Assembly: GCA_903841185.1 (NCBI GenBank) | Contig: CAIMIV010000042.1 | Coordinates: 11,319-75,318 of the forward strand | Source of the DNA: an uncultured bacterium | GTDB taxonomy: Bacteria; Patescibacteriota; Minisyncoccia; Moranbacterales; UBA2206 | DNA length: 64,000 nucleotides | Direction: 5' to 3' | Shown here: piece by piece, positions 21,675 to 56,661 of the stretch | Layout of the letters: each line of letters starts with the position of its first letter | Numbering within the stretch: the stretch's first letter is position 1 | The notes under the pieces: model-generated | What the model saw: only the letters and a program-made list of their open reading frames with translations | Told to the model about the DNA's origin: nothing | Databases searched by the model: none | Position numbers and translations under genes: made by a program

Positions 21675-21887
21675 ATGGCAGTAAAAAAAGCAGCAGCTAA
21701 AAAAGTTGCGAAAAAGGTTGTAAAAAAAGTAGCAGCTAAAAAAGTTGTGAAAAAGGTTGTAAAAAAAGTAGCAGCTAAAAAAGTTGTGAAAAAAGTAGCA
21801 GCTAAGAAAGTTGCTAAGAAGGTTGTGAAAAAAGCTGTAAAAAAAGCAGCTCCAAAGAAAAAAGTTGTAGCAAAAAAGAAGAAATAA
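21675..21887 (+). CDS. lysine/alanine-rich histone H1-like nucleoid protein
   Basis: 70 aa composed almost entirely of AAKKV/VVKKV repeats, encoded by ~45-bp tandem DNA repeats. A bidirectional terminator follows. Confidence 0.6.
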   Translation: MAVKKAAAKKVAKKVVKKVAAKKVVKKVVKKVAAKKVVKKVAAKKVAKKVVKKAVKKAAPKKKVVAKKKK

Positions 21888-22024: not shown

Positions 22025-22945
22025 TTAAACCGTGATTTGACAGAGGCGCCATTTTTGTGCCAGGTCTTTATGAAATGCGATGTGCGCTTGCGGAAGACGC
22101 TTTCGGATTAGCACCGGCAGTTGTCTTTTTTGCTCCGGACTGATCTCCATGTAACATGTTACATGTACCAAGGCATGAGTATTTTTTAGAGTTTCCATTT
22201 GCTGCAGCAGCTCCTCATAGTGTGCCAGTCCGGCAGCGGCGCTGTAGAGAGCGGATCGCGGTTCATATTTTTGCACGGTGGGGTGGGTGGCGGCATAGAT
22301 TTCGTCGGAGAGATAGGGGAGGTTGGCCAAGATTATCATCTTGGAATTTTCAATGTTCAATTTACAATTTTCAATTAGTGTTTCAAGAAGATTTCCTTGT
22401 AAGAATTTTATTTTTTTGGCCACGCCGTGGGTCTGGGCGTTTTGCTGTGCAACCGTTAGCGCTGCATTAGAAATATCCACGGCGAAGAATTTTGAATTTT
22501 GTCCGCCAGCTGGCGGATTGAATTTCGAATCAATGATTAAATTTTTTAAGATAGAAATAATAATATTGCCCGACCCAGTTCCCACGTCTACAATCATTTG
22601 ATGTTTGATGTTTGATGTTTGATGTTTGCTGGATATTTCCTGCAAGGCCATCTCGACCATCAATTCGGTCTCAGGACGGGGGATGAGCGTATCTGGGGTC
22701 ACAGCGAATGACAGGCCAAAAAACTCCCTGTAGCCCAGAATATAGGCCAAGGGCTCATCGCTCATTCTTCGCGTAATTTTTAAGTCTAAATTTTTAATTT
22801 TTAATGATGGAAGGACATATTCCGGGTAGGTCAGGACGAACTCGCGCGACTTTCCAATTTCTGCCGCAATCAGCACATCCAAGTCCAAGCGGTCAATTTT
22901 CCCGGCATATTTTTTCTGCAGGTCCGCGATGGTGGTCTTTGTCAT
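22025..22945 (-). CDS. prmC: peptide chain release factor N5-glutamine methyltransferase
   Basis: EPLAYILGYREFFGLSFAVTPDTLIPRPETE, SAM motif VDVGTGSGNI, and NLPY in place of NPPY. Confidence 0.75.
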   Translation of the reverse strand: MTKTTIADLQKKYAGKIDRLDLDVLIAAEIGKSREFVLTYPEYVLPSLKIKNLDLKITRRMSDEPLAYILGYREFFGLSFAVTPDTLIPRPETELMVEMALQEISSKHQTSNIKHQMIVDVGTGSGNIIISILKNLIIDSKFNPPAGGQNSKFFAVDISNAALTVAQQNAQTHGVAKKIKFLQGNLLETLIENCKLNIENSKMIILANLPYLSDEIYAATHPTVQKYEPRSALYSAAAGLAHYEELLQQMETLKNTHALVHVTCYMEISPEQKRQLPVLIRKRLPQAHIAFHKDLAQKWRLCQITV

Positions 22946-22954
22946 AATATTTTT

Positions 22955-23815
22955 TTAATCCAGTGGGCTTTTGATAGTCTGCAAATTAGTATTGGCCACC
23001 CTGGTGTAGATCTGTGTCGTTTCAAGGCGTGCATGACCCAGCAACTCTTGGATATAGCGAATGCTCGTGCCGGCTTCTAAAAGGTGAGTGGCGAAAGAAT
23101 GGCGCAAGCTGTGGCAAGAAACTTTTTTAGCAATGCCGGCCAGCTCAACTGCTTTTTTAACTATTTTTTCAGCACTTTCAGCAGTCAGATGTCCTTGTCC
23201 ACCAGCTCCAGTAAATAAATAGTCATTTGGCTTCTTCAGGGTTAATTGTTTTTGTAATGTTGGAATGAGTTTTTCAGATAACAGTGTGCAACGATCTTTT
23301 CCTCCCTTACCTTGGCGAACCATAATCATTTTTCTATCCAAATCAAAATCGCACATTCGGATTTTGATTGTCTCACTAACGCGCAGACCTGCCGAATACA
23401 TTAGTGATATCAAAAAATTATGTTTGGGGTTAGTTGTTTTCTCGAGCATTCGTTCAATCTCTTCTTTACTAAGGATTGTCGGCAGATAGTTGGTTTTTTT
23501 GGCACCTTTTATATCAAAGAAAAATTTGCGTTTCAATATTTGACGGTAATAGAATTTAAGGGCATTAAGTGCAACATTCAGGGTGGAATTGGCACAGTCC
23601 TTGTCTTTCAAAGAGATTAGGTATTGGCGAATGTCATCATTGGTTACTAGTTTGGGGCTTTTATCAGTAAATTGCAAAAAAAGCTTATTATAAAGTACAT
23701 AAGACTTTATAGTTTTTGGGCTAAAACCCCTGATTCTCAACTCTTGTTCTAAATTATACAGAGGGTCTCGTTCTTGAGTTGTTGTTTTTCCATCCATATG
23801 ATAGTATGTGTTCAT
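22955..23815 (-). CDS. tyrosine site-specific recombinase, XerC/XerD-like
   Basis: Catalytic residues in RVSE, KGGKDR, HSLRHSFATHLL, LLGH and QIYTRV. Size is 286 aa. Confidence 0.8.
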   Translation of the reverse strand: MNTYYHMDGKTTTQERDPLYNLEQELRIRGFSPKTIKSYVLYNKLFLQFTDKSPKLVTNDDIRQYLISLKDKDCANSTLNVALNALKFYYRQILKRKFFFDIKGAKKTNYLPTILSKEEIERMLEKTTNPKHNFLISLMYSAGLRVSETIKIRMCDFDLDRKMIMVRQGKGGKDRCTLLSEKLIPTLQKQLTLKKPNDYLFTGAGGQGHLTAESAEKIVKKAVELAGIAKKVSCHSLRHSFATHLLEAGTSIRYIQELLGHARLETTQIYTRVANTNLQTIKSPLD

Positions 23816-23894
23816 ATGATAGTTATGATTACATCAAAATCATAGCATAAACCATTGCTCAAGCCAATAACTTAGCAGGTACGAATAAAACTAG

Positions 23895-24189
23895 TTATCG
23901 GAAATAATTTATCACCTATGAATGAAAAATACAAAAAAATAGCCTTATCAGCATATATTCTTACAGCTGCCTATTTATCGACCGTATATAATTTCATTGG
24001 TCTCGTGGGGGCTGATTTTATCTTGGCGATTTTGGTTGCGATTTTACTAAATAGCTTTTTAGCATATCTGATATGGTCGAGTGATAAAACGCGAAAGTAT
24101 TCGGCTATTATTTTGACGATATTATTGTTGTTGGCCGCTCTTCATTTGTTGCCAGTATTTTAAAGGTGGTGATAAATTACATCCGATAA
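23895..24189. repeat. 295-bp unit bounded by 22-bp inverted repeats, enclosing a small ORF
   Basis: Left ttatcggaaataatttatcacc (23895-23916) against the reverse complement of right ggtgataaattacatccgataa (24168-24189) matches at 20 of 22 positions. The enclosed ORF starts 2 nt after the left IR and stops 5 nt before the right IR. Confidence 0.45.
23918..24163 (+). CDS. small membrane protein (2 TM)
   Basis: 81 aa with two hydrophobic helices. Confidence 0.45.
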   Translation: MNEKYKKIALSAYILTAAYLSTVYNFIGLVGADFILAILVAILLNSFLAYLIWSSDKTRKYSAIILTILLLLAALHLLPVF

Positions 24190-24386
24190 CAAAGAATATC
24201 TGGTTCAAAAAATTTGCCACAACTAAAACTAAAAGGAGGGCAAATTTTTCTCTCCCAAATCCCGCACTTTTCCGTTTTGTTGTAATTTAGAGTATAATGA
24301 GATGAATAAATAAATAAGAATATTAAGGTTTTGTGCCTAAAAGCCAAAGTGCAGGACTTCAGATATTCTTAAACGTTAAACGAAAT
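24187..24386 (+). repeat. copy 1 of a ~200-bp island repeat
   Basis: Begins taacaaagaatatctggttc and ends cttaaacgtta. Contains the hairpin aaaaatttgcc..ggcaaattttt with AAGGAGG in the loop and a tagagTATAATgag -10-like box. It is more than 90 percent identical to copies at 24886 and 29396. Confidence 0.7.
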
Positions 24387-24440
24387 TTTGTTCAAAAATA
24401 TTTTTTCATTTTTTATTGAGCCTTTTTGAAATTTTTTTAG

Positions 24441-24486
24441 AAAAAAGAAAGCCCCAGGTGGAATTGAATTTTCCACGAGGGGCTTA
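24441..24486 (-). terminator. rho-independent terminator for minus-strand small gene
   Basis: Hairpin agccccaggtggaa..ttccacgaggggct with a T-run on the minus strand. Confidence 0.45.
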
Positions 24487-24506
24487 GTTGTTGGCGTGTA
24501 ATGCGC

Positions 24507-24749
24507 TTATAAGTAACAAACGGGTCCGTTCTCACCTTTTTTTGTGTAAATTAGTGAAACCATTTGTGCAATAAGGCAGACCAGAAAAAATTCATACCTG
24601 CTTCCATTGATTTTTGGAATGTCAAATACCACGCTTGTGATTGCACTTAACATTCCAATGGTCCCCATAATTACGCCGATCCAGGCAAAAAACGTGTTAT
24701 TTTTATGCCAAATTTCTTTCATTATGACATCCTCCTTTTCGAGTTTCAT
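24507..24749 (-). CDS. small membrane protein
   Basis: 80 aa, two TM helices, followed by a terminator. Confidence 0.4.
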   Translation of the reverse strand: MKLEKEDVIMKEIWHKNNTFFAWIGVIMGTIGMLSAITSVVFDIPKINGSRYEFFLVCLIAQMVSLIYTKKGENGPVCYL

Positions 24750-24885
24750 GGTTTAATGTACTGTTTAACACCAAAATTAGCGTTCAAAGTAGCATAGCAG
24801 AAAACCAGTAACCCGTCAAGCCCACGGCCAAAAAATTTCAAAAAGGCTCTTTTAATAAGGAATATATTTTTGAACAAAACATCGT

Positions 24886-25088
24886 TTAACAAAGAATATC
24901 TGGTTCAAAAAATTTGCCGCAGTTAAAAACTAAAAGGAGGGCAAATTTTTCTCTCCCAAATCCAGCACTTTTCCGTTTTGCTGTAATTTAGAGTATAATG
25001 AGATTAACAAAGTAAATAGGAATATCAAGGTTTTGTGCATAAAAACCAAAGTGCAGGACTTCAGATATTCTTAAACGTTAAGTGAAAT
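24886..25088 (+). repeat. copy 2 of the ~200-bp island repeat
   Basis: Near-identical to copy 1 and lies upstream of the + strand ORF at 25216. Confidence 0.7.
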
Positions 25089-25215
25089 AAATCTTTATCT
25101 TTGTGGAAATTTCGAGCCAGGTTGCGTTGAACCAAGACGAAAATTTGATTTTTTTAAAAGTTTTTCCGCCACAGGCGGGATTATTTGGGGCTATTTTATT
25201 TTTAAATATAAAAAT

Positions 25216-26001
25216 ATGGAAAAAATTAACAAAAGCACAACACTGTTATTAAGTTCTTTTGCATTACTTCTGGTGCTAATCATTGCTGGGGTCATATCTT
25301 TCAAAAAAGAAATATCAACCTTAAAAAAAACACAGCAGTCATTATTACAAGAGAATGCGAAACTAAAGCAGGTCACAATTACTGATTCTCCTCAAAAAGC
25401 TCCCGTTGCTGAAATAACGGTTGGCAGTCCATGCGATGTGAATAATGGAAATATTTTAAATTCTAAGGGTCTGCAATGTTATTTTTATGATAGCTTAGAT
25501 TCAAGTGGAAATGAAATATTTCCTCGACACGGGGTATGGATTAAGCCTGATTTACGAAATATGCAAATTGATTCAAAGCTATATGAAATATATTTTAAGT
25601 CATGGAAAAAATATGTAAGTCCGGATAAAACTATTAGTTTTTCTTACCCACAAAACTGGAAAGTTGATGAGTCAAGTTGGAAGGATGGTAACTTATCTAT
25701 ACAATCAAGTGACTATTCACCGATATCAATTTCTAAGATTGAAAATAATGCTATTACAATAGAGCAGAGAATTAGTGATGATGAAAATGATAGACCATTT
25801 GAGAGAACTATTATCGAATTAAATGGCGTTAGTGGCACGAGACTCGACATCGCCCCAAAAGATAATTTAAGTGACCAAGAGCAAATAAAATTCTATTTTC
25901 AAAAGGATAAATATTACGTTGAATTAAGTGTTGCAAAAGCTGGATATGCTGCGTATGATTTTCCGACAGAATATTTATTGAGTACGATAAAAATAAAATA
26001 G
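25216..26001 (+). CDS. secreted or membrane-anchored hypothetical protein
   Basis: 261 aa with an N-terminal signal/anchor helix and no recognisable domain. Confidence 0.5.
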   Translation: MEKINKSTTLLLSSFALLLVLIIAGVISFKKEISTLKKTQQSLLQENAKLKQVTITDSPQKAPVAEITVGSPCDVNNGNILNSKGLQCYFYDSLDSSGNEIFPRHGVWIKPDLRNMQIDSKLYEIYFKSWKKYVSPDKTISFSYPQNWKVDESSWKDGNLSIQSSDYSPISISKIENNAITIEQRISDDENDRPFERTIIELNGVSGTRLDIAPKDNLSDQEQIKFYFQKDKYYVELSVAKAGYAAYDFPTEYLLSTIKIK

Positions 26002-26117
26002 CCCCAAATAATTGTTTTGCCATTCTGCAAAACAAAAACTTTTAAAAAAAATCAAATTTTCTATTAGCATGGATAAAGTTTGTGCTAATAAAAATGAAGA
26101 TAAAAATTTACATCACT

Positions 26118-26298
26118 TAACACGGCATATGCGGTTCAAAAATTTTGCGCTATTATATTTCAAGGAGTGCAAAATTTCCTCTCCCAAATTGCGCTGACGG
26201 AATGGCAAGTTTAGTGATATAATCAAGATAAGCGAAATTAACAAAATAATCAATCAATCCACGGCGCAACTTCGCATGTGCCGATACGTTAGACGAAA
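26118..26298 (+). repeat. diverged copy 3 of the island repeat
   Basis: Shares the start tacatcacttaac, a hairpin with compensatory changes (aattttgc/gcaaaatt), AAGGAG in the loop, ctctccc and a gtgaTATAATc box. It ends cgttagacgaaat. Confidence 0.5.
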
Positions 26299-26435
26299 TA
26301 AATTTATTTTATTTTTTAAATTCGCTTTTTATAATAAGAAAAAATAAGTTTTTTTATCTATTTATATAGGGGTAAAAAGGTGTTTTCTCCGCTGAGGCTG
26401 CGAAAACGGATTTATTAATATAATTTGTTTATATT

Positions 26436-28172
26436 ATGCAAAAAAATAACGAGATTGATTCATTAAAATTCAGCTGGGGTGATTTGGCGCGAGCGATTTT
26501 ATATTTATTTGGGGAAAAGAAAAATGAATATCTTTTTTCTTTGTTTGTCGTGGCTGTATTTAATTTATACGTAATTGTGCCGCCTTTGATAATTGGAAAA
26601 GTGATTGATTTTTTCAGCACATACAAATCAGGTGAATCGTTGAATACTTTTTATTTTTATGTGATTTTTCTGGGAATTTTCATTGGCGCCGTGCATTATT
26701 TCAATCTCTCCGCAATCCAGAAATTTCTACGTCTTAGCAACGAGTTAGTTTATAAGATTCGCGTCCAGGGCTTTGAGAAGTTATTGGAACAATCACTGTC
26801 CGAGCATGGTGAAGAAAATACAGGCGCCAAAAATCAAAAGATTCAAAATGGCGTGACGGCTTTTAATTTGTTTTCCGAAGCCTTGAATGACAGAATACTT
26901 CCCTCAATAGCGACGCTAGTCGGTGTTTTTGGCGTATTTTTGTATTTGAATTTTATCTATAATATTATTCTGATCGCTTATTTAATTGGCTTTGTCTACA
27001 TCCTTAGATTTTTCAGAAAGAAATTCGTAATGCTTCATTATGAAAAGAGTTTAGCTATGGAAAAATCAAGTGGTACTTATATTGAAGGTTTGAGCAATAT
27101 TACCACGATTAAGGCTAGTGGTGCAGAAAAAAATTTCAAAAGATCAGTCAGCAAAAACGAAGAGGCACGTAATTTTTTTGATCAAGAGATTTTGCGTGTC
27201 CGTGTAAATCAGTGGAAGTTATTTAACATTTATAACGGTATTTATACGGGAATATTTTTGTTTGTTATTGGTAGGGATGTAATCGCTGGCGTGGTTTCGA
27301 TCGGATCAATTGCAATTTTGTTGGCTTATTTAGAGAAAATAACCGACGCATCTGGCAAAGTGCTTGGTATGTATGGCTATTTAATTGACAAAAGAACATC
27401 TATCGCCCGCATGATGACTATTTTTTGGGCTGATAACAATATTTTAACTGGCGAAAAAGAATTCCCAGTCGATTGGCAGGAGATAAAATTAAGCAATGCG
27501 AGTTATGCTTATAAAAATGAAAAAAACACTAAAACTAATATTAACGGTGTCAATCTGGTGATTCAAAAAAACCAAAAAGTTGGCATCATTGGCACAACTG
27601 GCAGTGGCAAATCAACGCTTGTAAAATTATTGCTTGGCCTATACCCGCTTGATAAAGGAGAATACAAAATCGGCACAACTAATTTTTATGACATCAAGCA
27701 TGATGAAATATTCAAGCACATAGCAATTGTCTTACAAGAGTCGGAAATGTTCAATATTTCACTCAAAGAAAATATTGCGTTAAGTGAAAAAATTGATGAA
27801 GGGCGTTTATTGCACGCGATCAACATTGCTCAATTGGATGAGGTGGTGAAAAGCTTACCTAATGGCTTTGAAACTTTAATCGGGGAAAAGGGATACCATC
27901 TTTCTGGCGGCGAACGCCAACGCGTCGGCATTGCTCGAGCGATTTATAAAGATCCTGAAATTATGATTTTTGACGAAGCTACTTCATCACTTGATGTGCA
28001 AACAGAAAAGAAAATTCAAAAAGCACTTTTGGACAATCTTCAGCAAAAAACTATTATCATAGTCGCACATCGAACGAATACCCTGGAAAAAGTAGATGTT
28101 ATCTATAAAGTGGAAGGTGGAAAAATTGTTCAACAAGGAAGTTATGAGGAGTTTTTTGGTATTCACCAATGA
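26436..28172 (+). CDS. ABC transporter, fused permease/ATP-binding subunit
   Basis: TM domain plus GTTGSGKSTL, LSGGERQRVGIARA, IMIFDEATSSLD and VAHR. Confidence 0.85.
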   Translation: MQKNNEIDSLKFSWGDLARAILYLFGEKKNEYLFSLFVVAVFNLYVIVPPLIIGKVIDFFSTYKSGESLNTFYFYVIFLGIFIGAVHYFNLSAIQKFLRLSNELVYKIRVQGFEKLLEQSLSEHGEENTGAKNQKIQNGVTAFNLFSEALNDRILPSIATLVGVFGVFLYLNFIYNIILIAYLIGFVYILRFFRKKFVMLHYEKSLAMEKSSGTYIEGLSNITTIKASGAEKNFKRSVSKNEEARNFFDQEILRVRVNQWKLFNIYNGIYTGIFLFVIGRDVIAGVVSIGSIAILLAYLEKITDASGKVLGMYGYLIDKRTSIARMMTIFWADNNILTGEKEFPVDWQEIKLSNASYAYKNEKNTKTNINGVNLVIQKNQKVGIIGTTGSGKSTLVKLLLGLYPLDKGEYKIGTTNFYDIKHDEIFKHIAIVLQESEMFNISLKENIALSEKIDEGRLLHAINIAQLDEVVKSLPNGFETLIGEKGYHLSGGERQRVGIARAIYKDPEIMIFDEATSSLDVQTEKKIQKALLDNLQQKTIIIVAHRTNTLEKVDVIYKVEGGKIVQQGSYEEFFGIHQ

Positions 28173-28232
28173 CCTCAAACATGATAAAATAAAGATAAGT
28201 TTCACTGCCTATTTTAATAAAATACAAAATTC

Positions 28233-29255
28233 ATGTCCAAAAACAATCATAAAATTAGCATAAAAGACGAATTGACCGAATTTCTGCTTTACACAGCCCC
28301 AAGTGGCAAGGTAAAAGTAGAAATTTACTTTCATGACGAAAATATTTGGCTTACCCAAGACAAAATGGCCAAATTATTTGGCGTGCAACAACCAGCTATT
28401 GCCAAACACTTGAAGAATATTTTTGAAAGCGGTGAATTGCTGGAAAATTCAGTTCATTCCATTTTGGAATATACTGCCAGCGATGGCAAAAAGTATCAAA
28501 CCAAATTTTATAATCTTGACGCCATAATTTCCGTTGGATATCGGGTAAATTCAGCTCAAGCTACTCAATTTCGCATCTGGGCAACAGAAAGGCTTAAAGA
28601 GTACATCATAAAAGGTTTCACCATAGATGATGAGAGATTGAAGAATGGAAGATATTTTGACAAAGATTATTTTCTCGAACTTTTGGAAAGAGTCCGTTCA
28701 ATTCGTGCTAGTGAGCGAAAAATTTATCAGCAAATTACGGATATTTTTGCTGAATGTAGTATGGATTACAGTCCAACATCAGAAATTGCTAAAAATTTTT
28801 ATGCAATGATTCAAAATAAATTCCATTTTGCTATTACTGGCAAAACTGCAGCTGAGATTATTTATGAGACGGCTGACAAGCAAAAACCATTTATGGGACT
28901 TAAGACTTGGAAAAATTCACCAAATGGCAGAATTATCAAATCCGACACAGTTATCGCTAAAAATTATCTTAACGAGGATAAAATAAAAAAACTGGAAAGA
29001 GGCATTGTCGGCTATTTTGATTACATTGAAAGATTGATTGAGAATCACACCGCTCTCACGATGGAAAAGTTGGCGGAATCTGTAAATAACTTTTTGGAGT
29101 TTAACAAGTACGAAGTGCTTGAAGGAAAGGGCACGATTTCTCATGCCCAAGCAGAACAAAAAGCGTTTCAAGAATATGACGAATATAATAAGACGCAGGC
29201 AATAGAATCTGATTTTGACAAACTTGTAAAATCTTTACCGACTGGAGAAAAATAA
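28233..29255 (+). CDS. RhuM-family virulence/DNA-binding protein
   Basis: N-terminal VKVEIYFHDENIWLTQDKMAKLFGVQQPAIAKHL and the AIISVGYRVNS region match the RhuM family. Confidence 0.65.
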   Translation: MSKNNHKISIKDELTEFLLYTAPSGKVKVEIYFHDENIWLTQDKMAKLFGVQQPAIAKHLKNIFESGELLENSVHSILEYTASDGKKYQTKFYNLDAIISVGYRVNSAQATQFRIWATERLKEYIIKGFTIDDERLKNGRYFDKDYFLELLERVRSIRASERKIYQQITDIFAECSMDYSPTSEIAKNFYAMIQNKFHFAITGKTAAEIIYETADKQKPFMGLKTWKNSPNGRIIKSDTVIAKNYLNEDKIKKLERGIVGYFDYIERLIENHTALTMEKLAESVNNFLEFNKYEVLEGKGTISHAQAEQKAFQEYDEYNKTQAIESDFDKLVKSLPTGEK

Positions 29256-29395
29256 GGAGTTTTGAATTTTAGGCATTCCCGCCAGAGGCGGACAGGCATC
29301 CCTGACCCCTCTGCCCAAAATCCAAAACAAAAAAACTTATTTAATCTATTTAGAATAAAAAGCGAATTTAAAAAAGAAAATAAATTTACATCGTC

Positions 29396-29615
29396 TAACA
29401 AAGAATATCTGGTTCAAAAAATTTGCCGCAGTTAAAAATACAAGGAGGGCAAATTTTTTTCTCCCCTGCCTACCGGCAGGCAGGCAAATCCCGCACTTTT
29501 CCATTTTGTCGTAATTTAGGGTATAATAGGATTAATAAATAAATAGGAATATTAAGGTTTTATGCATAAAAACCAAAGTGCAGGACTTCAGATATTCTTA
29601 AACGTTAGGTGTAAT
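29396..29615 (+). repeat. copy 4 of the ~200-bp island repeat carrying a 22-bp palindromic insertion
   Basis: Same as copies 1 and 2, except that ctgcctaccggcaggcaggca is inserted after ctccc. The same 25-mer occurs at 10297. Confidence 0.7.
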
Positions 29616-29652
29616 TTATTTAAAATCCCTTAAAAAATAAATTAAGAAAAAT

Positions 29653-29955
29653 ATGACAACAATAAATGAGTTTCAAGAAATGTGTGCCAAGGTGGTGGGG
29701 GAGATTGACGCAAAATATGGCATTGCTCGTGACCCGCATTTTAGCTTCACACAATTTATGGAAGAAGTTGGTGAACTGGCGAAAGAGATAAATAAGCCGA
29801 AGTTGCGCAACAAAGAAATGGATCGGGAAAATTTGAACGGTGAATTTGCCGACGTCATCTTGCAGTTTTTCACACTTGCCAGTATGCTAGAAGTAGATGT
29901 GGAAAAGGCAGTTGAAGCTAAAATGGCGATACTGAAAGAGCGACATGATTTATAA
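29653..29955 (+). CDS. MazG-like nucleotide pyrophosphohydrolase domain protein
   Basis: 100 aa with the EEVGELAKEI...EFADVILQ pattern of the MazG/NTP-PPase all-alpha fold. Confidence 0.55.
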   Translation: MTTINEFQEMCAKVVGEIDAKYGIARDPHFSFTQFMEEVGELAKEINKPKLRNKEMDRENLNGEFADVILQFFTLASMLEVDVEKAVEAKMAILKERHDL

Positions 29956-29972
29956 TTTTAAATTACAATCCT

Positions 29973-30392
29973 ATGGGAAGGGAACAACCGCCGACATTTG
30001 ATCCGCGTGATGAGAAATATAAAAAAGTGGAGGATTTGCCGGAAGAAGAGCAGGAGAATTTTGTAAAAGTGAATGGTGGATTTATTACGCAAAAGGCCAA
30101 GCGCTTTGAGGACGCGGTTTTGAAGCAGGAGGAATTGCTTAATCCAAAGATCTTTAGGGGAAAAACTGCTGACATAATTCAAAATAGCTTGAAGGAGTCA
30201 CCGGAGGAATATATAAAGCACCATCGGCGACTAAGGCGGTGTAAAGCGTGGGCCGCTGGAGAGGAAGCCGCTGTGGCCGAAAAAAATATTATGCCGAATG
30301 AGGAGACTATTCCGGAAGACGCTAGTACGGCGGATGGACAGTCAGCTTTGACAGAAGAGGAATTGTCTGAAAAAACATGCAAAAGAATATGA
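29973..30392 (+). CDS. hypothetical acidic protein
   Basis: 139-aa ORF with no motif; its 3' end overlaps the next gene. Confidence 0.35.
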   Translation: MGREQPPTFDPRDEKYKKVEDLPEEEQENFVKVNGGFITQKAKRFEDAVLKQEELLNPKIFRGKTADIIQNSLKESPEEYIKHHRRLRRCKAWAAGEEAAVAEKNIMPNEETIPEDASTADGQSALTEEELSEKTCKRI

Positions 30393-30778
30393 AAAAAGAT
30401 AACAGAAAAAATAGCCGGCGCAGCCTGGTTTTTGTATTAGGTGCTATTTTGTGGTTGAGTGTTATTTTTTTATTTTCTGCCGAGCCGAATTTGCGCTCAC
30501 CTTTTTCCTATAACGTAGATTTCGTTTTACGCAAAATAGCGCACATTGTGGAATATCTTATTTTGACGGTGCTGGTATGGAAGGCTTTGTTGCCGCGAGC
30601 CAAAGGCAACTTGTTGCTGGCGGTTTTTTTGATAGTCTTGAGCGCGGCGGTTTTGGATGAATGTCATCAATTGTTTGTCGCAGGGCGGGAAGGCACGCTC
30701 CGCGACGTGTTGTTTGACGCGGGGGGAATTTTCATTGCTTGGTATTTTATTATTAGAAAAAAAAATGAAAAAAGATAG
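30377..30778 (+). CDS. VanZ-like membrane protein
   Basis: Hydrophobic helices and LDECHQLFVAGREGTLRDVLFDAGG typical of the VanZ family. Confidence 0.55.
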   Translation: MQKNMKKDNRKNSRRSLVFVLGAILWLSVIFLFSAEPNLRSPFSYNVDFVLRKIAHIVEYLILTVLVWKALLPRAKGNLLLAVFLIVLSAAVLDECHQLFVAGREGTLRDVLFDAGGIFIAWYFIIRKKNEKR

Positions 30779-31790
30779 CATCATTGAATTGGAGATGGGT
30801 GGCGGGGGAGAAAAATCATCGCAACTGATTGCGCAGATCCGGAAAAATTTCACGGTGAAGTCCAAATGGAAAAATAGCGCCGATGATGGAGCTGTTTTTG
30901 ATCTTGGTATAAATAATGTGGAGACGCCCCGCCAGGGCGTCTCCACAGCGTCGGATAAATTGGTGTTCACCACGGATGCTTTTATTGTGGATCCGATTTT
31001 TTTTGCCGGCGGCGACATTGGCAAGATTGCTATGTGTGGCACCATCAATGATTTATGCGTGATGGGCGCGCAGCCGATTGGCATTGGTTTGAGTGTGGTA
31101 ATTGAAGAAGGCTTTCCCGTAGATGATTTGGAAAAAATTATGCAGTCTATTGGAAAAATTTCCCAGGAAACCGGCGTGCCGATTGTGACGGGCGACACTA
31201 AGGTGACGGAAAAAGGCAAGCTCGACAAAATTGAAATTACTACATCGGGTGTCGGTTTGGCTAAAATAATAATCAATAATGGTGGAGCCAAGGTGGGCGA
31301 CGCCGTGATTGCCTCGGGCAATCTCGGCGAACACGCGGTGGCGCTTTTGGCGAGCCGCTTTAATTATAAAACAAAAATCCAGAGCGATTGTCAGCCCTTG
31401 ATTAAAGAAATTCAGAATGTTTCCCCGTATCTTACCTCGTGCAAAGACCCGACCCGCGGAGGTATGGCGGCGGTGCTTAATGAAATCGCGGAAAAATCTA
31501 AAGTAAAAATTGTTCTGGAGGAAGAGCTGTTGCCGTTTGCCAAGGAAACGGTGGCACTTTCCGGACTCTTGGGCATTGATAAATTTTCCTTTCCTTCTGA
31601 AGGGCGCTTTGTGGCCACGGTGCCGGAAAAACAGGCCAAAAAAGTGATTAAAATGCTGCAAAAATTCAATCCCGAGGCTAAAATTATCGGCCACGTGGAG
31701 CGTGGACGAGGCGTGCACCTGCAAACATCGCTAGGCAGCAGCAAAAAAATCGAAGTACCGCGAGGAAAGCTAATCCCGCGAATTTGTTAG
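30765..31790 (+). CDS. hypE: hydrogenase maturation protein HypE
   Basis: PurM-like fold, N-terminal ELEMGGGGE, and the C-terminal PRIC motif carrying the thiocyanate-carrier cysteine. The start is taken at the ATG at 30765. Confidence 0.8.
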   Translation: MKKDSIIELEMGGGGEKSSQLIAQIRKNFTVKSKWKNSADDGAVFDLGINNVETPRQGVSTASDKLVFTTDAFIVDPIFFAGGDIGKIAMCGTINDLCVMGAQPIGIGLSVVIEEGFPVDDLEKIMQSIGKISQETGVPIVTGDTKVTEKGKLDKIEITTSGVGLAKIIINNGGAKVGDAVIASGNLGEHAVALLASRFNYKTKIQSDCQPLIKEIQNVSPYLTSCKDPTRGGMAAVLNEIAEKSKVKIVLEEELLPFAKETVALSGLLGIDKFSFPSEGRFVATVPEKQAKKVIKMLQKFNPEAKIIGHVERGRGVHLQTSLGSSKKIEVPRGKLIPRIC

Positions 31791-33119
31791 AAAATATATA
31801 ATCTGCCCAAATGAAAGTCCAGCGTCGCCACGCGGAATTTGCACAACCGGTATCCTTGAGGAGGAGCCGGTTTTTTTATTTTCAAAATATTCAGAAATTA
31901 TTTTGTTGTTGGCGATTCCGCCGGCGATAAAGATTTGTGGTGAGCAACTTTTGGATTGCAGTTCAATAATCTCGCTCAAGCCTTCAGCGATGTAGCGCTG
32001 GGCAGTCGCAGCCAGCCTCCTTTTGTCTTTGTTTATATTTTTAATTAGATATTCAAACAAATAAGTTGTATTCAGTATGTAATGTTTTTTTGAAAATTTA
32101 GTCATTGAAAATTCATTGTAAATTGTAAATTGTAAATTGGAAATTGAAGGGCTTTCCATAACTTCAATCTTTGGTTTTATATCCATATAGGGCTTACCGG
32201 AGTTGCTTTCTAAGAGGTCTATCGCTTCGTGTTTGTAGGTTCTCTTATTGTCGCAAAAACCCAGTAGCAGCGAGACGGCATCTAGGATGCGACCCGTGCT
32301 GGAAGTTTCCAGACAATTAAAATTTTGTTGAAGTTGATTATACAGAACTTCAAATTCCTGCGCGGAATAATATTTTTTCGCGAAATTGTAGATAAAGTTT
32401 TTTTGAGATTTGAGATTTGAGATTTGAGATTTGTTTGTCCCTTGTTTTTTGTAGCTTGTGATTTTATCAAGTATCGCGATTAGCATTCTCGCCGGCTCCT
32501 GAATAGCCAACTCTCCTCCCAGCAATATTTGATTTTCCAAATGCCCAACGCGCTCATTGGAAATTTTAAATTTTAAATTTGTAATTTTAAATATCTCTCC
32601 TCCCCAAATTTTCTCATCTAATCCATACCCCGTTCCATCGAGAGCAATTCCGAAAAAGTTTTGAGTTTTGAGTTTTGAGTTTTGAGATTTGTTTGTATCT
32701 TGTGTCTTGTATCTTGTATCTTGCGTGAGCTCTCCCAATTGGGAGAAGATATGGGCCACGTGGTGTTGAACCTGGACATGCTCAGCTTTAAATTTTTTTG
32801 CTAATTCCTTTCCCCATAAAGTGGTGTTCATATCCGGGTGCAGGTCAGTGATGATGACATCCGGCGTAACGGATGTTTTTTTGAGAAACGCTAGGACAGT
32901 CTTTTGAAAGGCCTTGAAATTAGCGTCTTCTTGGAGATCGCCAAAATCAGGGGAGAAAAAAAGTTGACCATTTTTGAAAAAGGAAAAATTGCCAGCCGAT
33001 TCGGCTCCTAGAGAGAGGATTTGTTGAATGGTGGAATGAGGGTATTTAAAAATTTGCATGATTCGGGTAAAAAGATTATATATGTATGTAGTGTATAATA
33101 GAAATAATGAATTTGACAA
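31770..33119 (-). CDS. HypF-like carbamoyltransferase, Kae1/YgjD-like domain only
   Basis: TDLHPDMNTTLW and VQHHVAH match the HypF C-terminal domain. No acylphosphatase, Zn-finger or YrdC domain is present. Heptanucleotide tandem repeats encode low-complexity inserts. Confidence 0.55.
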   Translation of the reverse strand: MSNSLFLLYTTYIYNLFTRIMQIFKYPHSTIQQILSLGAESAGNFSFFKNGQLFFSPDFGDLQEDANFKAFQKTVLAFLKKTSVTPDVIITDLHPDMNTTLWGKELAKKFKAEHVQVQHHVAHIFSQLGELTQDTRYKTQDTNKSQNSKLKTQNFFGIALDGTGYGLDEKIWGGEIFKITNLKFKISNERVGHLENQILLGGELAIQEPARMLIAILDKITSYKKQGTNKSQISNLKSQKNFIYNFAKKYYSAQEFEVLYNQLQQNFNCLETSSTGRILDAVSLLLGFCDNKRTYKHEAIDLLESNSGKPYMDIKPKIEVMESPSISNLQFTIYNEFSMTKFSKKHYILNTTYLFEYLIKNINKDKRRLAATAQRYIAEGLSEIIELQSKSCSPQIFIAGGIANNKIISEYFENKKTGSSSRIPVVQIPRGDAGLSFGQIIYFLTNSRD

Positions 33120-55861: not shown

Positions 55862-55935
55862 GGGCCCTTAGCTCAGTTGGCTAGAGCGCCTCGTTTGCAC
55901 CGAGGAGGTCGGGAGTTCGAATCCCCCAGGGTCCA
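55862..55935 (+). tRNA. tRNA-Ala (anticodon UGC)
   Basis: Cloverleaf with acceptor GGGCCCU/AGGGUCC, anticodon loop uuUGCac and T-loop GTTCGAATC. Confidence 0.9.
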
Positions 55936-56065
55936 CACTTCGACTCATCTTGATTTACATCAAGATTCGCTCAGTGTAAACACCAGCCAATGAATATTCA
56001 TTGAGCTTGAGAAACAACACTGAGTCGAAGTACCATGAGCTTGTCGAATGGCAAGCGTAGTAACT

Positions 56066-56460: not shown

Positions 56461-56534
56461 GGGCGTATAGCTCAGTTGGTTAGAGCGCGTCACTGATAAT
56501 GACGAGGCCTCTGGTTCGAGTCCAGATATGCCCA
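56461..56534 (+). tRNA. tRNA-Ile (anticodon GAU)
   Basis: Cloverleaf with anticodon stem cguca/ugacg, loop cuGAUaa, T-loop GTTCGAGTC and acceptor gggcgua/uaugccc. Confidence 0.9.
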
Positions 56535-56661
56535 CCTATGTTTTTTGTTTATGTTGACAACATTATTTTTATAGTATACACTTATATATAGAAAAGCCTT
56601 CAGGGGCTTTTTAAAAAACCGTAAAAACGCTTTTAAGTAAAAAAGGCTTAAATAAAAGAAA

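What the first reader, a model, noticed from the sequence alone, without database searches (positions are those of the whole stretch)
22955..30780. Cassette-like accessory island: a divergent tyrosine recombinase followed by cargo genes separated by four copies of a ~200-bp repeat
The Xer-like recombinase is on the minus strand, with its start at 23815. Immediately downstream on the plus strand lies a string of accessory genes: two small membrane proteins, a secreted protein, an ABC exporter, a RhuM-like protein, a MazG-like protein, a hypothetical and a VanZ-like protein. The spacers at 24187, 24886, 26118 and 29396 are copies of one ~200-bp element with the same start (acatcg.ttaacaaagaat) and end (cttaaacgtta). 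This integrase-divergent-from-cargo layout with repeated inter-cassette elements resembles an integron or shufflon-like gene-capture platform. The repeats are much more uniform than classical attC sites, so this may instead be a promoter-bearing modular linker or MITE family.
Basis: partly seen in the sequence, partly recalled or inferred. Interest (0 to 1): 0.7.

Follow-up and report, generated by a model that had tools for sequence, protein, structure and literature searches.

The report
Integron-like cassette array with Xer recombinase
Next to a Xer-type recombinase gene, an uncultured Moranbacteria (CPR) bacterium carries a row of swappable accessory-gene cassettes separated by foldable repeat sites: an integron-like gene-capture system built from chromosome-resolution (Xer/dif) parts, for which I found no published description.

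Summary
Four copies of a 190-228 bp element (24179-24386, 24879-25088, 26110-26299, 29388-29615) separate gene blocks just upstream of a divergent tyrosine recombinase. None occurs elsewhere in the window.

The element behaves as a recombination site, not a linker. Each copy starts ACATC-N4-AAC and ends GTT-N4-GAAAT. The N4 and flank after each GTT are the reverse complement of the start of the NEXT copy, not of its own. That is the integron signature of crossover at G/TT.

In 6 related Patescibacteria loci with at least 2 kb upstream, and 120 metagenome stretches chosen by the site motif, the same sites lie upstream of and divergent from recombinase homologues, with different cargo. An inner 11-bp stem covaries.

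The recombinase is closest to integron integrase IntI4 but lacks the IntI-specific domain, so this is not a canonical integron. The insertion site is a dif-like 28-mer (GGTACGAATAA-AACTAG-TTATCGGAAAT). Each repeat is a pair of inverted dif-like half-sites, like the CTX-phage attP hairpin. The locus is not at a GC-skew switch.

Best reading: a Xer/dif-derived, integron-like cassette platform. I found no description of it in the paper library.

The parts
22955..23815 (-). Tyrosine recombinase, 286 aa. Xer-like and IntI-like but without the IntI-specific insertion.
   Evidence: PF00589 and Phage_int_SAM_4. NCBIfam XerA_Arch 234 bits (cut-off 220); integrase_gron 229 bits (below 265), matched in two stretches. 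Best PDB hit is IntI4 (2a3v), 169.6 bits, with 12 aa where IntI4 has 54. More than 100 Patescibacteria homologues at 54-100% identity.
23816..23877 (.). Conserved intergenic region between the recombinase start codon and the insertion site. It includes the inverted repeat TATGATT-ACATCAAA-ATCATA at 23824-23844. Probable recombinase promoter/operator or accessory binding region; this role is inferred.
   Evidence: Alignment by eye of the upstream regions of 13 related loci.
23878..23905 (+). attI-like, dif-like 28-mer: GGTACGAATAA | AACTAG | TTATCGGAAAT. The conserved-to-variable junction falls at G(23894)/TT.
   Evidence: It is the only such site in the window. The left part is conserved and the sequence diverges right after GTT in about 25 loci. 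Counting by eye against the E. coli dif sequence (string present in the library), 9/11 and 8/11 arm positions are identical.
23895..24190 (+). Cassette 1: 81-aa membrane protein (23918-24163), flanked by a 23-nt inverted repeat.
   Evidence: I17: 23894-23916 / 24168-24190, 91% complementary.
24179..24386 (+). Site 1 (208 nt): ACATC-CGAT-AAC-A-AAGAATATCTG ... CAGATATTCTT-AAAC-GTT-AAAC-GAAAT. The interior holds a terminator-like hairpin and a TATAAT box.
24376..24890 (+). Cassette 2: 80-aa membrane protein on the minus strand (24507-24749). A diverged copy of this cassette, duplicated, is in L001.
   Evidence: I5, I2; N4 4/4, flank 17/20.
24879..25088 (+). Site 2 (210 nt).
25078..26121 (+). Cassette 3: 261-aa secreted or membrane-anchored protein (25216-26001).
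   Evidence: I15; N4 4/4; weak PsbP_2.
26110..26299 (+). Site 3 (190 nt), the divergent copy. Its inner stem carries compensatory changes (CGGCATATGCG / CGCATGTGCCG).
26289..29399 (+). Cassette 4 with two genes: ABC exporter (26436-28172) and RhuM-family protein (28233-29255). It is flanked by a 50-nt, 90% inverted repeat. Its 5' leader recurs at the start of other cassettes in L001 and L016.
   Evidence: I1; N4 4/4, flank 19/20.
29388..29615 (+). Site 4 (228 nt). It carries a 20-nt GC-rich palindrome insert (about 29463-29482).
29605..29978 (+). Terminal unit: MazG-like protein (29653-29955). Only a weak, possible remnant of a right-hand inverted repeat (29953-29978, read by eye) and no following site.
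   Evidence: no partner for GTTAGGT downstream. The remnant is my reading of the sequence and is tentative.

Best explanation
This is a chromosomal gene-cassette array served by the adjacent Xer-family tyrosine recombinase. It works like an integron but is built from Xer/dif-type parts.

Shown.
(1) A conserved dif-like 28-bp site lies 35-140 bp upstream of the recombinase gene. Sequence conservation between genomes stops exactly at its G/TT, so this is the insertion point.
(2) Each cassette begins with TT-N4-GAAAT-flank and ends with the reverse complement, flank'-ACATC-N4'-AAC. The two ends of a cassette were therefore once joined across a crossover at or next to GTT.
(3) Cassettes are separated by 85-816 nt sites. 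The ends of each site (ACATC-N4-AAC-A-L'' ... L'-A(A/T)AC-GTT-N4-GAAAT) are two inverted dif-like half-sites, and their inner 11-bp arms covary.
(4) Cargo differs completely between related genomes, while site types are shared.

Inferred.
- A circular cassette, probably single-stranded, folds its two inverted half-sites into a hairpin that mimics a dif-like duplex with a bulged central region, as integron attC and CTX-phage attP(+) do.
- The recombinase exchanges one strand with the duplex attI-like site at AA^C/G^TT.
- Replication resolves the junction.
- Site-by-site recombination excises or reshuffles cassettes together with their downstream site.
- Long-type sites may also terminate transcription of the upstream cassette and promote the next one.
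For: Window.
- The R' N4 of each site is the reverse complement of the R'' N4 of the next site in 4/4 junctions counting attI. Flanking inverted repeats run 23-50 nt.

All loci pooled (105 distinct sites, 83 distinct cassettes).
- Next-site N4 match is perfect in 51/83 cases (mean 3.33/4). Own-site match is perfect in 9/105 (mean 1.76/4).
- Complementarity of the 20-nt flanks is 13.4/20, against 6.8 when partners are shuffled (maximum 7.8 in 500 shuffles).

Structure.
- The inner stem is 90.5% paired, and 9 of its 11 pairs change on both sides. For the whole tested structure, 0/500 shuffles reach the observed values on four of the five measures (8/500 on the count of pairs with a change on both sides), and slid controls give 19-39% paired.
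- The consensus fold of 16 short sites is Y-shaped, with 20/30 pairs compensatory.

Position.
- attI is conserved up to GTT and diverges after it in about 25 loci, whose recombinases are 42-90% identical. One contig ends exactly at GTT (L008).
- Site-end motifs: 110 upstream and divergent from the recombinase, 6 elsewhere, with similar amounts of DNA on both sides.
- Seven contigs of 221-788 kb each gave one stretch.

Cassettes.
- 63/74 cassette ORFs are co-oriented with the array.
- Cargo is of accessory type: GNAT, NUDIX, SnoaL, Fic, HD, HAD, methylases, transporters.
- In 3 of 4 informative pairs, homologous cassettes in different contexts keep their downstream site but not their upstream one.
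- A sister species (backbone 75-86% nt identity) has entirely different cassettes, but its 208-nt sites are 88-94% identical to the window's.

Recombinase.
- Closest solved relative is the integron integrase IntI4.
Against: - No recombination product (circular cassette, alternative order within one population) was seen. Three samples of the same strain show the same order over the first two cassettes and the start of the third.
- The recombinase lacks the IntI domain that in integrons reads the extrahelical bases of folded attC.
- It is unusually conserved: 85-90% aa identity in five related genomes whose neighbouring prmC is only 50-60% identical (89% vs 56% for L001), and it is often syntenic with prmC. 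It may therefore be a housekeeping Xer that the cassettes merely exploit.
- Mismatch types in the stems show no strand asymmetry: G.T vs A.C is 7:10 and 34:27. Folding of one particular strand is therefore not demonstrated.
- Nine long sites have matched inner arms 400-816 nt apart and some enclose ORFs. That also fits a duplex, dif-module-like mechanism.
- The regex used to collect sites presupposes the end motifs, and the stem subset was chosen by best match. This inflates the percentage paired.
Confidence: 0.75

Rival explanations
1. The 28-mer is the genuine chromosomal dif site of a single-recombinase Xer system encoded next to it (from my own knowledge, as with XerS/difSL). The cassettes are parasitic integrative elements exploiting Xer (IMEXs) that piled up there. 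On this view the platform is a by-product of chromosome dimer resolution, not a dedicated capture system.
For: - The 11-6-11 site is dif-like and directly upstream of the gene in about 25 loci.
- NCBIfam files the protein under XerA.
- No second recombinase is present in the window.
- The recombinase is far more conserved than neighbouring prmC and is often syntenic with it.
- Smyshlyaev et al. 2021 (PMC8138268) treat the 'Cand' recombinases of candidate phyla as Xer-related.
Against: - The locus is not at a replichore switch. GC skew has the same sign on both sides in the window and in L001, L005, L010, L011 and L014, and genes on both sides of the window locus are mostly on the + strand.
- The cassettes carry no replication, packaging or transfer genes.
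- Cargo and co-orientation look like adaptive cassettes.
- Only 64 kb of this genome was seen, so a second Xer/dif pair elsewhere is not excluded.
Confidence: 0.25
2. The array is a chain of dif-module-like units, as on Acinetobacter plasmids. Duplex dif-like sites alternate in orientation, bounding 'D modules' (the cassettes) and 'C modules' (the repeat bodies). They move by ordinary double-strand Xer recombination between sites with matching spacers. No single-strand folding is involved.
For: - Every unit is bounded by inverted arms of one type.
- The 5' end of each repeat is a regular 11-6-11 site (columns).
- Some 'C modules' are 400-816 nt long and contain ORFs of 78-158 aa.
- Empty 'D modules' of 79-90 bp exist.
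- There is no strand asymmetry in stem mismatches.
- The dif-module rules are described in PMC13141974.
Against: - All units have one orientation (110 vs 6 motifs), whereas dif modules invert.
- The 3' site has an 8-9 nt spacer against 6 nt in attI and in the 5' site. Duplex partners would therefore be mismatched in both spacer length and sequence.
- Covariation of the 4 variable spacer bases between the two ends of a body, the 20-50 nt complementarity of cassette flanks beyond the arms, and the covarying internal hairpins all have no role in a duplex mechanism.
- A dedicated recombinase gene and an attI are present, and the array is chromosomal.
Confidence: 0.2
3. It is a canonical integron: IntI, attI and attC sites.
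For: - The layout and polarity are those of an integron.
- AAC...GTT ends and the G/TT crossover signature are present.
- IntI4 is the best solved-structure relative.
- In the window itself all four R' fit GTTRRRY and three of four R'' fit RYYYAAC.
Against: - The IntI-specific additional domain is absent: 12 aa in place of 54, and TIGR02249 scores below its cut-off.
- Across the family only 39/105 R' and 25/105 R'' fit the consensus, and only 46/105 sites are within 57-141 nt.
- The sites carry conserved ACATC/GAAAT extensions and dif-like arms.
Confidence: 0.04
4. The repeat is a MITE-like or promoter/terminator linker that spread between genes and has no link to the recombinase.
For: - A perfect TATAAT at a conserved position, flagged in copies 3 and 4 by the promoter scan and present in all four copies by eye.
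- An A/T-flanked GC hairpin that looks like a bidirectional terminator.
Against: - The repeat is confined to one locus per genome, always upstream of and divergent from the recombinase and in one orientation.
- The flanks of a copy are not complementary to each other but to the neighbouring copies. This rules out insertion into palindromic targets.
- Promoter-like hits in the region are not enriched (28 found, 24.7 expected).
- Short-type sites lack the TATAAT segment.
Confidence: 0.04

Closest known systems
Integrons (IntI / attI / attC), especially sedentary chromosomal integrons
   Same: - The recombinase gene is divergent from an insertion site, followed by an array of mostly single-gene, co-oriented cassettes.
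- Each cassette ends in an imperfect-palindrome site with AAC...GTT ends.
- The crossover at G/TT means the bases after GTT belong to the next cassette.
- The inner stem covaries.
- Cargo consists of small accessory enzymes.
- Sites are near-uniform within a lineage.
- The recombinase's best solved relative is IntI4.
   Different: - There is no IntI-specific additional domain.
- The four bases after GTT are free rather than RRRY.
- The sites carry conserved ACATC/GAAAT extensions and dif-like arms, are longer (median 158 nt, up to 816) and have a conserved Y-shaped interior.
- Cassette-specific complementarity extends 20-50 nt beyond the core.
- Some sites carry promoter-like and terminator-like elements.
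- The host is Patescibacteria.
CTX-phi type IMEX: attP(+) hairpin integrated at dif by XerCD (PMC4246890)
   Same: - The attachment region is two dif-like sequences in inverted orientation, about 100-150 nt in all.
- They can fold into a hairpin that reconstitutes one dif-like duplex with an irregular central region.
- The partner is a duplex dif-like site.
- The recombinase is Xer-type.
- Successive insertions at the same site make tandem arrays.
   Different: - The units are 0.1-4 kb gene cassettes with no phage or replication genes.
- There is one recombinase, not XerC + XerD, and its gene sits at the site.
- The site is not at the terminus.
- Many different cassettes share the site family.
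Acinetobacter plasmid dif modules (pdif sites; PMC13141974)
   Same: - Small accessory modules, including empty ones, are bounded by inversely oriented dif-like sites.
- Modules alternate between those flanked by one arm type and those flanked by the other.
- Content is shuffled between relatives.
   Different: - The array here is chromosomal and unidirectional, with a dedicated adjacent recombinase and attI.
- One of the two site types has an 8-9 nt spacer.
- One module class is almost always a conserved non-coding foldable element.
Single-recombinase Xer systems (archaeal XerA/dif; XerS/difSL; the 'Cand' Xer-related group of Smyshlyaev et al. 2021, PMC8138268)
   Same: - The protein family assignment: NCBIfam XerA_Arch above its cut-off, and PDB XerA structures 4a8e and 5hxy as the next-best hits.
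- The target is a 28-bp 11-6-11 site.
- From my own knowledge, in XerS systems the site lies next to the gene.
   Different: - The site is not at a skew switch.
- It is followed by a cassette array.
- The protein scores higher against IntI4 than against XerA, XerD or XerH.

Membership tests
Integron | Integrase carries the IntI-specific additional domain around patch III (Messier & Roy 2001, as cited in PMC9668308) | tested here: not met
   query residues 196-207 (12 aa) stand where IntI4 has residues 186-239 (54 aa). TIGR02249 scores 229 against a cut-off of 265, in two stretches. Homologues next to arrays in metagenome loci align over about 265 aa without extra length.
Integron | Tyrosine recombinase gene adjacent to, and divergent from, an attI insertion site | tested here: met
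   a conserved site lies 35-140 bp upstream. The sequence diverges after GTT in about 25 loci.
Integron | Cassette sites are imperfect inverted repeats R''-L''...L'-R' with conserved AAC and GTT triplets, conserved in structure rather than sequence | tested here: met
   AAC/GTT is invariant in 67/67 sites. The L stem is 90.5% paired, with 9/11 pairs changed on both sides.
Integron | Core consensus RYYYAAC / GTTRRRY | tested here: not met
   25/105 and 39/105 sites fit. The window's own copies fit in 3/4 and 4/4.
Integron | Crossover between G and TT, so the end of R' matches the R'' of the following cassette | tested here: met
   the next-site match is perfect in 51/83, the own-site match in 9/105. 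The exact phosphodiester bond (G/TT or GTT/N) cannot be resolved, because GTT is invariant.
Integron | attC length about 57-141 nt | tested here: inconclusive
   46/105 sites fall within this range. The median is 158 nt and the range 85-816.
Integron | Recombination of the folded bottom strand; Pc promoter driving the array | not testable with these tools
   Mismatch-type asymmetry was inconclusive. The promoter scan was not informative.
Xer/dif chromosome dimer resolution | Xer-family recombinase | tested here: met
   NF040815 XerA_Arch scores 234.3 against a cut-off of 220. XerA structures score 140-144 bits.
Xer/dif chromosome dimer resolution | 28-bp site with two 11-bp arms and a 6-bp spacer resembling dif | tested here: met
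   Arm identity to E. coli dif is 9/11 and 8/11, counted by eye; the dif string is confirmed present in the library.
Xer/dif chromosome dimer resolution | Site located at the replication terminus (GC-skew and gene-orientation switch) | tested here: not met
   skew has the same sign on both sides of the locus in the window and in 5 of 6 other loci. In the window, genes on both sides are mostly on the + strand.
Xer/dif chromosome dimer resolution | Sole Xer of the genome; FtsK-dependent resolution | not testable with these tools
   Only 64 kb of the genome is available. There is no second homologue in the window.
CTX-phi type IMEX | Two inverted dif-like sites about 90-150 nt apart that can fold into one hairpin site | tested here: met
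   The definition is from PMC4246890.
CTX-phi type IMEX | Element is a phage, satellite or island with its own replication or morphogenesis genes | tested here: not met
   cassettes encode single accessory proteins. There were 0 matches in viral contigs and none in the phage collection.
Acinetobacter dif modules | Alternating C and D modules bounded by inversely oriented complete pdif sites with 6-bp spacers | tested here: inconclusive
   The alternation of arm types is met. The 5' sites are 11-6-11, but the 3' sites have 8-9 nt spacers.
Acinetobacter dif modules | Modules occur in either orientation (inversion between flanking sites) | tested here: not met
   110 motifs in one orientation against 6 others; almost no hits on the other strand.
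MITE / generic promoter module | Copies dispersed through the genome next to unrelated genes | tested here: not met
   one locus per window and per 221-788 kb contig.

The most novel reading that the evidence does not exclude
Patescibacteria (CPR) widely carry a previously unrecognised class of gene-capture platform. A single Xer-like recombinase, sister to integron integrases but lacking their extra domain, recombines CTX-attP-like folded double-dif sites into a dif-like attI next to its own gene. This would be a living intermediate, or an independent parallel, between Xer/dif chromosome resolution, IMEX integration and integrons. It would show how integrons could have arisen.
Probability: 0.45. 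Interest if true: 0.92.

Novelty: new variant of a known kind. Interest (0 to 1): 0.82.

Why it matters
- Origin of integrons. Integrons are the textbook bacterial gene-capture device, but their origin is unresolved: where IntI, attI and attC came from, and how cassettes are made. Here the platform logic of an integron is combined with plainly dif-like sites and a recombinase without the IntI domain. The proposed Xer-to-integron path therefore becomes testable with real sequences.
- Accessory gene exchange in CPR bacteria. These organisms have tiny genomes and few recognised mobile elements. One hypervariable locus per genome, found in at least 120 metagenome stretches, would be a main route by which they exchange accessory genes.
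- Assembly. The locus also explains recurrent contig breaks next to this recombinase in MAGs.
- Tools. A small recombinase acting on structured sites could be of practical interest.

Tried and rejected
- Rfam. A gathering-threshold search of the window and five related loci, and a permissive search on the array, gave no family for the repeat. It is not a known RNA.
- Other collections. blastn of a repeat copy against the plasmid and phage collections gave no match. A viral-contig pattern scan gave 0 hits.
- Promoter/terminator scan. Not enriched over shuffles, so the promoter idea rests only on a conserved TATAAT.
- Search for a partner of the last R' (GTTAGGT) downstream. None found. I read a weak remnant after MazG by eye only.
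- Mismatch-type asymmetry (G.T vs A.C), to decide which strand folds. No asymmetry.
- tblastn of all window cassette proteins and distal flank proteins against all fetched loci. Only prmC hits. This shows cargo turnover but gave no shared distal boundary.
- Invertible-switch or shufflon reading. Rejected because all copies share one orientation.
- Insertion of a MITE into palindromic targets. Rejected because own-flank complementarity is at background level.
- Literature. Ten searches; those aimed at integron-like arrays in Patescibacteria/CPR found no description of such arrays. The library is incomplete, so prior description elsewhere cannot be excluded.
- Not done: structure prediction, and a full phylogeny of the recombinase against IntI, XerC, XerD, XerA, XerH and XerS.

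Full report
OBSERVATION

The repeat is real. The repeat finder, direct reading and alignment show four direct copies at 24179-24386, 24879-25088, 26110-26299 and 29388-29615.
- Three copies are close. The third is divergent.
- Probes from the repeat hit only these copies, against 0.00-0.04 expected by chance.
- A profile HMM finds nothing else in the 64-kb window.
- The array (23-30 kb) has 32-37% G+C, against 40-47% around it.

WHAT THE REPEAT ENDS SAY

Every copy starts ACATC-N4-AAC-A followed by an 11-nt arm (L''). Every copy ends with the complementary arm (L'), then A(A/T)AC-GTT-N4-GAAAT.

The decisive point is which sequences are complementary. The N4 and the following 20-50 nt after the GTT of one copy are the reverse complement of the sequence leading into the ACATC-N4-AAC of the NEXT copy, not of its own:
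- site 0 GTTATCG with copy 1 CGATAAC;
- copy 1 GTTAAAC with copy 2 GTTTAAC;
- copy 2 GTTAAGT with copy 3 ACTTAAC;
- copy 3 GTTAGAC with copy 4 GTCTAAC.

Inverted repeats of 23, 30-42, 25 and 50 nt flank the four gene blocks (I17, I5/I2, I15, I1). Each gene block is therefore a unit whose two ends were once joined. The join lies at or next to the invariant GTT. This is exactly the pattern that crossover at G/TT produces in integron arrays.

An element inserted into palindromic targets would show the opposite pattern. It is excluded, because own-site complementarity is at background level.

RELATED GENOMES

The recombinase has more than 100 homologues at 54-100% identity. All that carry names are from Moranbacteria, Parcubacteria or Patescibacteria.

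I fetched their contexts.
- All six loci with at least 2 kb upstream of the gene (L001, L005, L009, L010, L011, L014), and also L151, carry the same kind of sites. The sites are always upstream, divergent, and in one orientation.
- Contigs often break 80-230 bp upstream of the gene. One (L008) ends exactly at GTT.
- The region between the start codon and GTT is conserved. The sequence differs from the base after GTT onward. That defines an attI-like insertion point.
- Cargo is entirely different. None of the window's cassette proteins recurs in any other locus.
- L001 carries cupin, an AAA_33 kinase, a duplicated small membrane-protein cassette and Fic.
- L151 is a sister species with 75-86% backbone nucleotide identity. 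It has four other cassettes, yet its 208-nt sites are 88-94% identical to the window's.
- Three samples of the window's own strain show the same order over the first two cassettes and the start of the third.

METAGENOME SCAN

It gave none in viral contigs.
- Seven contigs of 221-788 kb each contributed a single stretch.
- Nineteen stretches also contain a recombinase homologue at 39-80% identity, always divergent and upstream.
- Over all loci with a recombinase, 110 site-end motifs are upstream-divergent and 6 lie elsewhere. The amounts of DNA are comparable: 152 kb upstream and 178 kb downstream.

POOLED STATISTICS

These are based on 105 distinct sites and 83 distinct cassettes.
- Sites are 85-816 nt long (median 158).
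- Cassettes are 17-4027 bp long (median 690).
- Next-site N4 match is perfect in 51/83 cases (mean 3.33/4). Own-site match is perfect in 9/105 (mean 1.76/4).
- Flank complementarity is 13.4/20, against 6.8 with shuffled partners (maximum 7.8).

Structure.
- The L stem is 90.5% paired, and 9 of its 11 pairs change on both sides. For the whole tested structure, 0/500 shuffles reach the observed values on four of the five measures, and slid controls give 19-39% paired.
- RNAalifold on 16 short sites gives a Y-shaped fold: the R and L stems plus two hairpins. Twenty of 30 pairs are compensatory.
- Caveats: the sites were collected with a regular expression that presupposes the end motifs, and the stem subset was chosen by best register.

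Cassettes.
- ORFs are co-oriented with the array in 63/74 cassettes.
- They encode GNAT, NUDIX, SnoaL, Fic, HD, HAD, methyltransferases, a C5 DNA methylase, a P-type ATPase and similar proteins.
- In 3 of 4 informative pairs, homologous cassettes found in different contexts keep their downstream site but not their upstream one. This fits a mobile unit of 'gene + following site'.

THE RECOMBINASE

Pfam gives Phage_integrase plus a SAM-like N domain.

NCBIfam scores:
- XerA_Arch 234 bits (cut-off 220);
- integron integrase TIGR02249 229 bits (cut-off 265), matched in two stretches;
- XerD 193 bits;
- XerC 187 bits.

Against solved structures:
- the best hit is the Vibrio integron integrase IntI4 (2a3v, 169.6 bits);
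- then XerA (144 and 140 bits);
- then XerD (89.5 bits).

The IntI4 alignment breaks where IntI4 has residues 186-239 and the query has only 12 residues. The IntI-specific additional domain defines integron integrases (PMC9668308; PMC8138268). It is therefore absent.

The protein is strikingly conserved. It is 85-90% identical in five related genomes whose adjacent prmC is only 50-60% identical.

THE SITES ARE dif-LIKE

The attI junction in the window is GGTACGAATAA-AACTAG-TTATCGGAAAT (23878-23905). It is the only such site in the window.
- Against E. coli dif, GGTGCGCATAA-TGTATA-TTATGTTAAAT (string confirmed in the library), the arms match at 9/11 and 8/11 positions by my count.
- Across about 25 loci the consensus is (G/A)GTNCGNATAWA | AACNAG | TT-N4-GAAAT.
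- The segment TT-N4-GAAAT that starts every cassette is thus a XerD-arm-like half-site.
- Each repeat consists of two inverted dif-like sites. The 5' site is a regular 11-6-11 site. The 3' site has an 8-9 nt spacer. They are separated by 60-700 nt.

This is the architecture of the CTX-phage attachment region. That region has two inverted dif-like sites, about 150 nt in all, is used as folded (+)ssDNA, undergoes one strand exchange, and is completed by replication (PMC4246890). In form it also resembles the alternating C and D modules of Acinetobacter plasmids (PMC13141974).

IS attI THE CHROMOSOMAL dif?

Probably not in this genome.
- GC skew keeps the same sign on both sides of the locus in the window and in five of six other loci.
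- Genes on both sides of the window locus are mostly on the + strand.
- The locus is therefore not at a replichore switch.
- Only 64 kb of the genome is available, so a dual role cannot be excluded.

MECHANISM

Shown:
- the insertion point;
- the unit boundaries;
- the complementarity rules;
- the covariation;
- the association with the recombinase;
- the cargo turnover.

Inferred:
- that the adjacent recombinase catalyses the exchange;
- that the site acts as a folded single strand.

I favour folding for four reasons.
1. Between the two ends of a repeat body, the four variable bases next to the conserved arm covary.
2. Cassette flanks are complementary far beyond any protein-binding arm.
3. 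The two half-sites differ systematically in spacer length: 1 nt against 3-4 nt between the L and R boxes, which gives a bulge in the hairpin.
4. A duplex 3' site (8-9 nt spacer) would be mismatched with attI (6 nt).

Against folding, or neutral to it:
- there is no G.T versus A.C asymmetry in stem mismatches;
- nine long sites keep matched arms 400-816 nt apart, and some enclose ORFs.

Long loops are unproblematic in a fully single-stranded circle. They also fit a duplex, dif-module-like mechanism.

Long-type sites contain an A/T-flanked GC hairpin and a conserved TATAAT. They may therefore insulate and drive individual cassettes. This is only a lead.

COMPARISON AND NOVELTY

The system works like an integron but fails the defining IntI-domain test, and the strict core consensus holds only in part. 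It shares:
- site architecture with CTX-phi attP;
- module geometry with dif modules;
- protein family with XerA and the 'Cand' Xer-related recombinases, which the literature assumes to be housekeeping.

The literature searches aimed at integron-like arrays in Patescibacteria/CPR found no description of such arrays. The repeat matches no Rfam family. It has no relative in the plasmid or phage collections.

I rate it a new variant of a known kind: a site-specific-recombination cassette platform. Interest is high because it links Xer/dif, IMEX integration and integrons in one system.

Noticed in passing
window 46584-55682 (+): A single 3032-aa ORF in a region where GC skew drops to about 0 and G+C rises to 47-51%. 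It is a giant protein of unknown type.
   Followed up: no
window 21675-21887 (+): A 70-aa ORF made almost entirely of K/A/V repeats (AAKKVAKKVVKK...), encoded by 27/39-nt tandem repeats in a 29% G+C stretch. It looks like a histone-H1-like or nucleoid protein.
   Followed up: no
window 55862-55936 and 56461-56536 (+): tRNA-Ala(TGC) and tRNA-Ile(GAT), the pair usually found in rRNA spacers, stand alone here. No rRNA was detected anywhere in the window.
   Followed up: no
window about 29463-29482 (inside site 4); also L001 about 3640 and about 2380: The GC-rich palindrome CCTGCCTACCGGCAGGCAGG is inserted in one site copy and recurs in a related genome's array. There a deletion between two copies seems to have truncated a site after the Fic cassette. 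It is possibly a small REP-like element.
   Followed up: partly
window 26288-26370; L001 6943-6860 and 3730-3650; L016 upstream of the recombinase: The same leader of about 85 nt (GTTAGACGAAATAAATTTATTTT.TTTTTTAAATTCGC...TATTTATATAGGGG) begins cassettes with unrelated genes: ABC+RhuM, SSF+ProRS, Fic. It is a shared 5' module of unknown role.
   Followed up: partly
L001 6930-3829: A block bounded by sites contains a sodium:solute symporter and a prolyl-tRNA synthetase-like gene. Its ends are not complementary (N4 2/4, flank 10/20). It is either a fused multi-cassette block or backbone trapped between two arrays.
   Followed up: no
L001 9262-8766; L009 9329-8514; L073, L118 and others: Sites of 400-816 nt have perfectly matched inner arms and inserts. 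Some inserts encode 78-158 aa ORFs. The L001 insert has a tRNA-T-arm-like string, but no tRNA or Rfam hit.
   Followed up: partly
L003 1086-1963; L151 5510-6334: In some relatives an AbiEii/DUF6922 toxin-antitoxin pair or a Bro-N gene is inserted between the recombinase and prmC. The 3' side of the recombinase gene is therefore also a variable spot.
   Followed up: no
window 32387-32470 and 32659-32717, inside the minus-strand ORF 31770-33119: Runs of GAGATTT/GAGTTTT heptamer repeats lie within a 449-aa ORF. Related AAATTT-type repeats occur at 22340-22380 inside prmC. These are in-frame low-complexity inserts in otherwise conserved genes.
   Followed up: no
L007, L008, L012 (record titles): Three GTDB representative MAGs that carry this Moranbacteria-type recombinase (80-87% identity) are titled 'uncultured Bdellovibrionales bacterium'. 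This is probably a mislabel or a binning problem in the public records.
   Followed up: no
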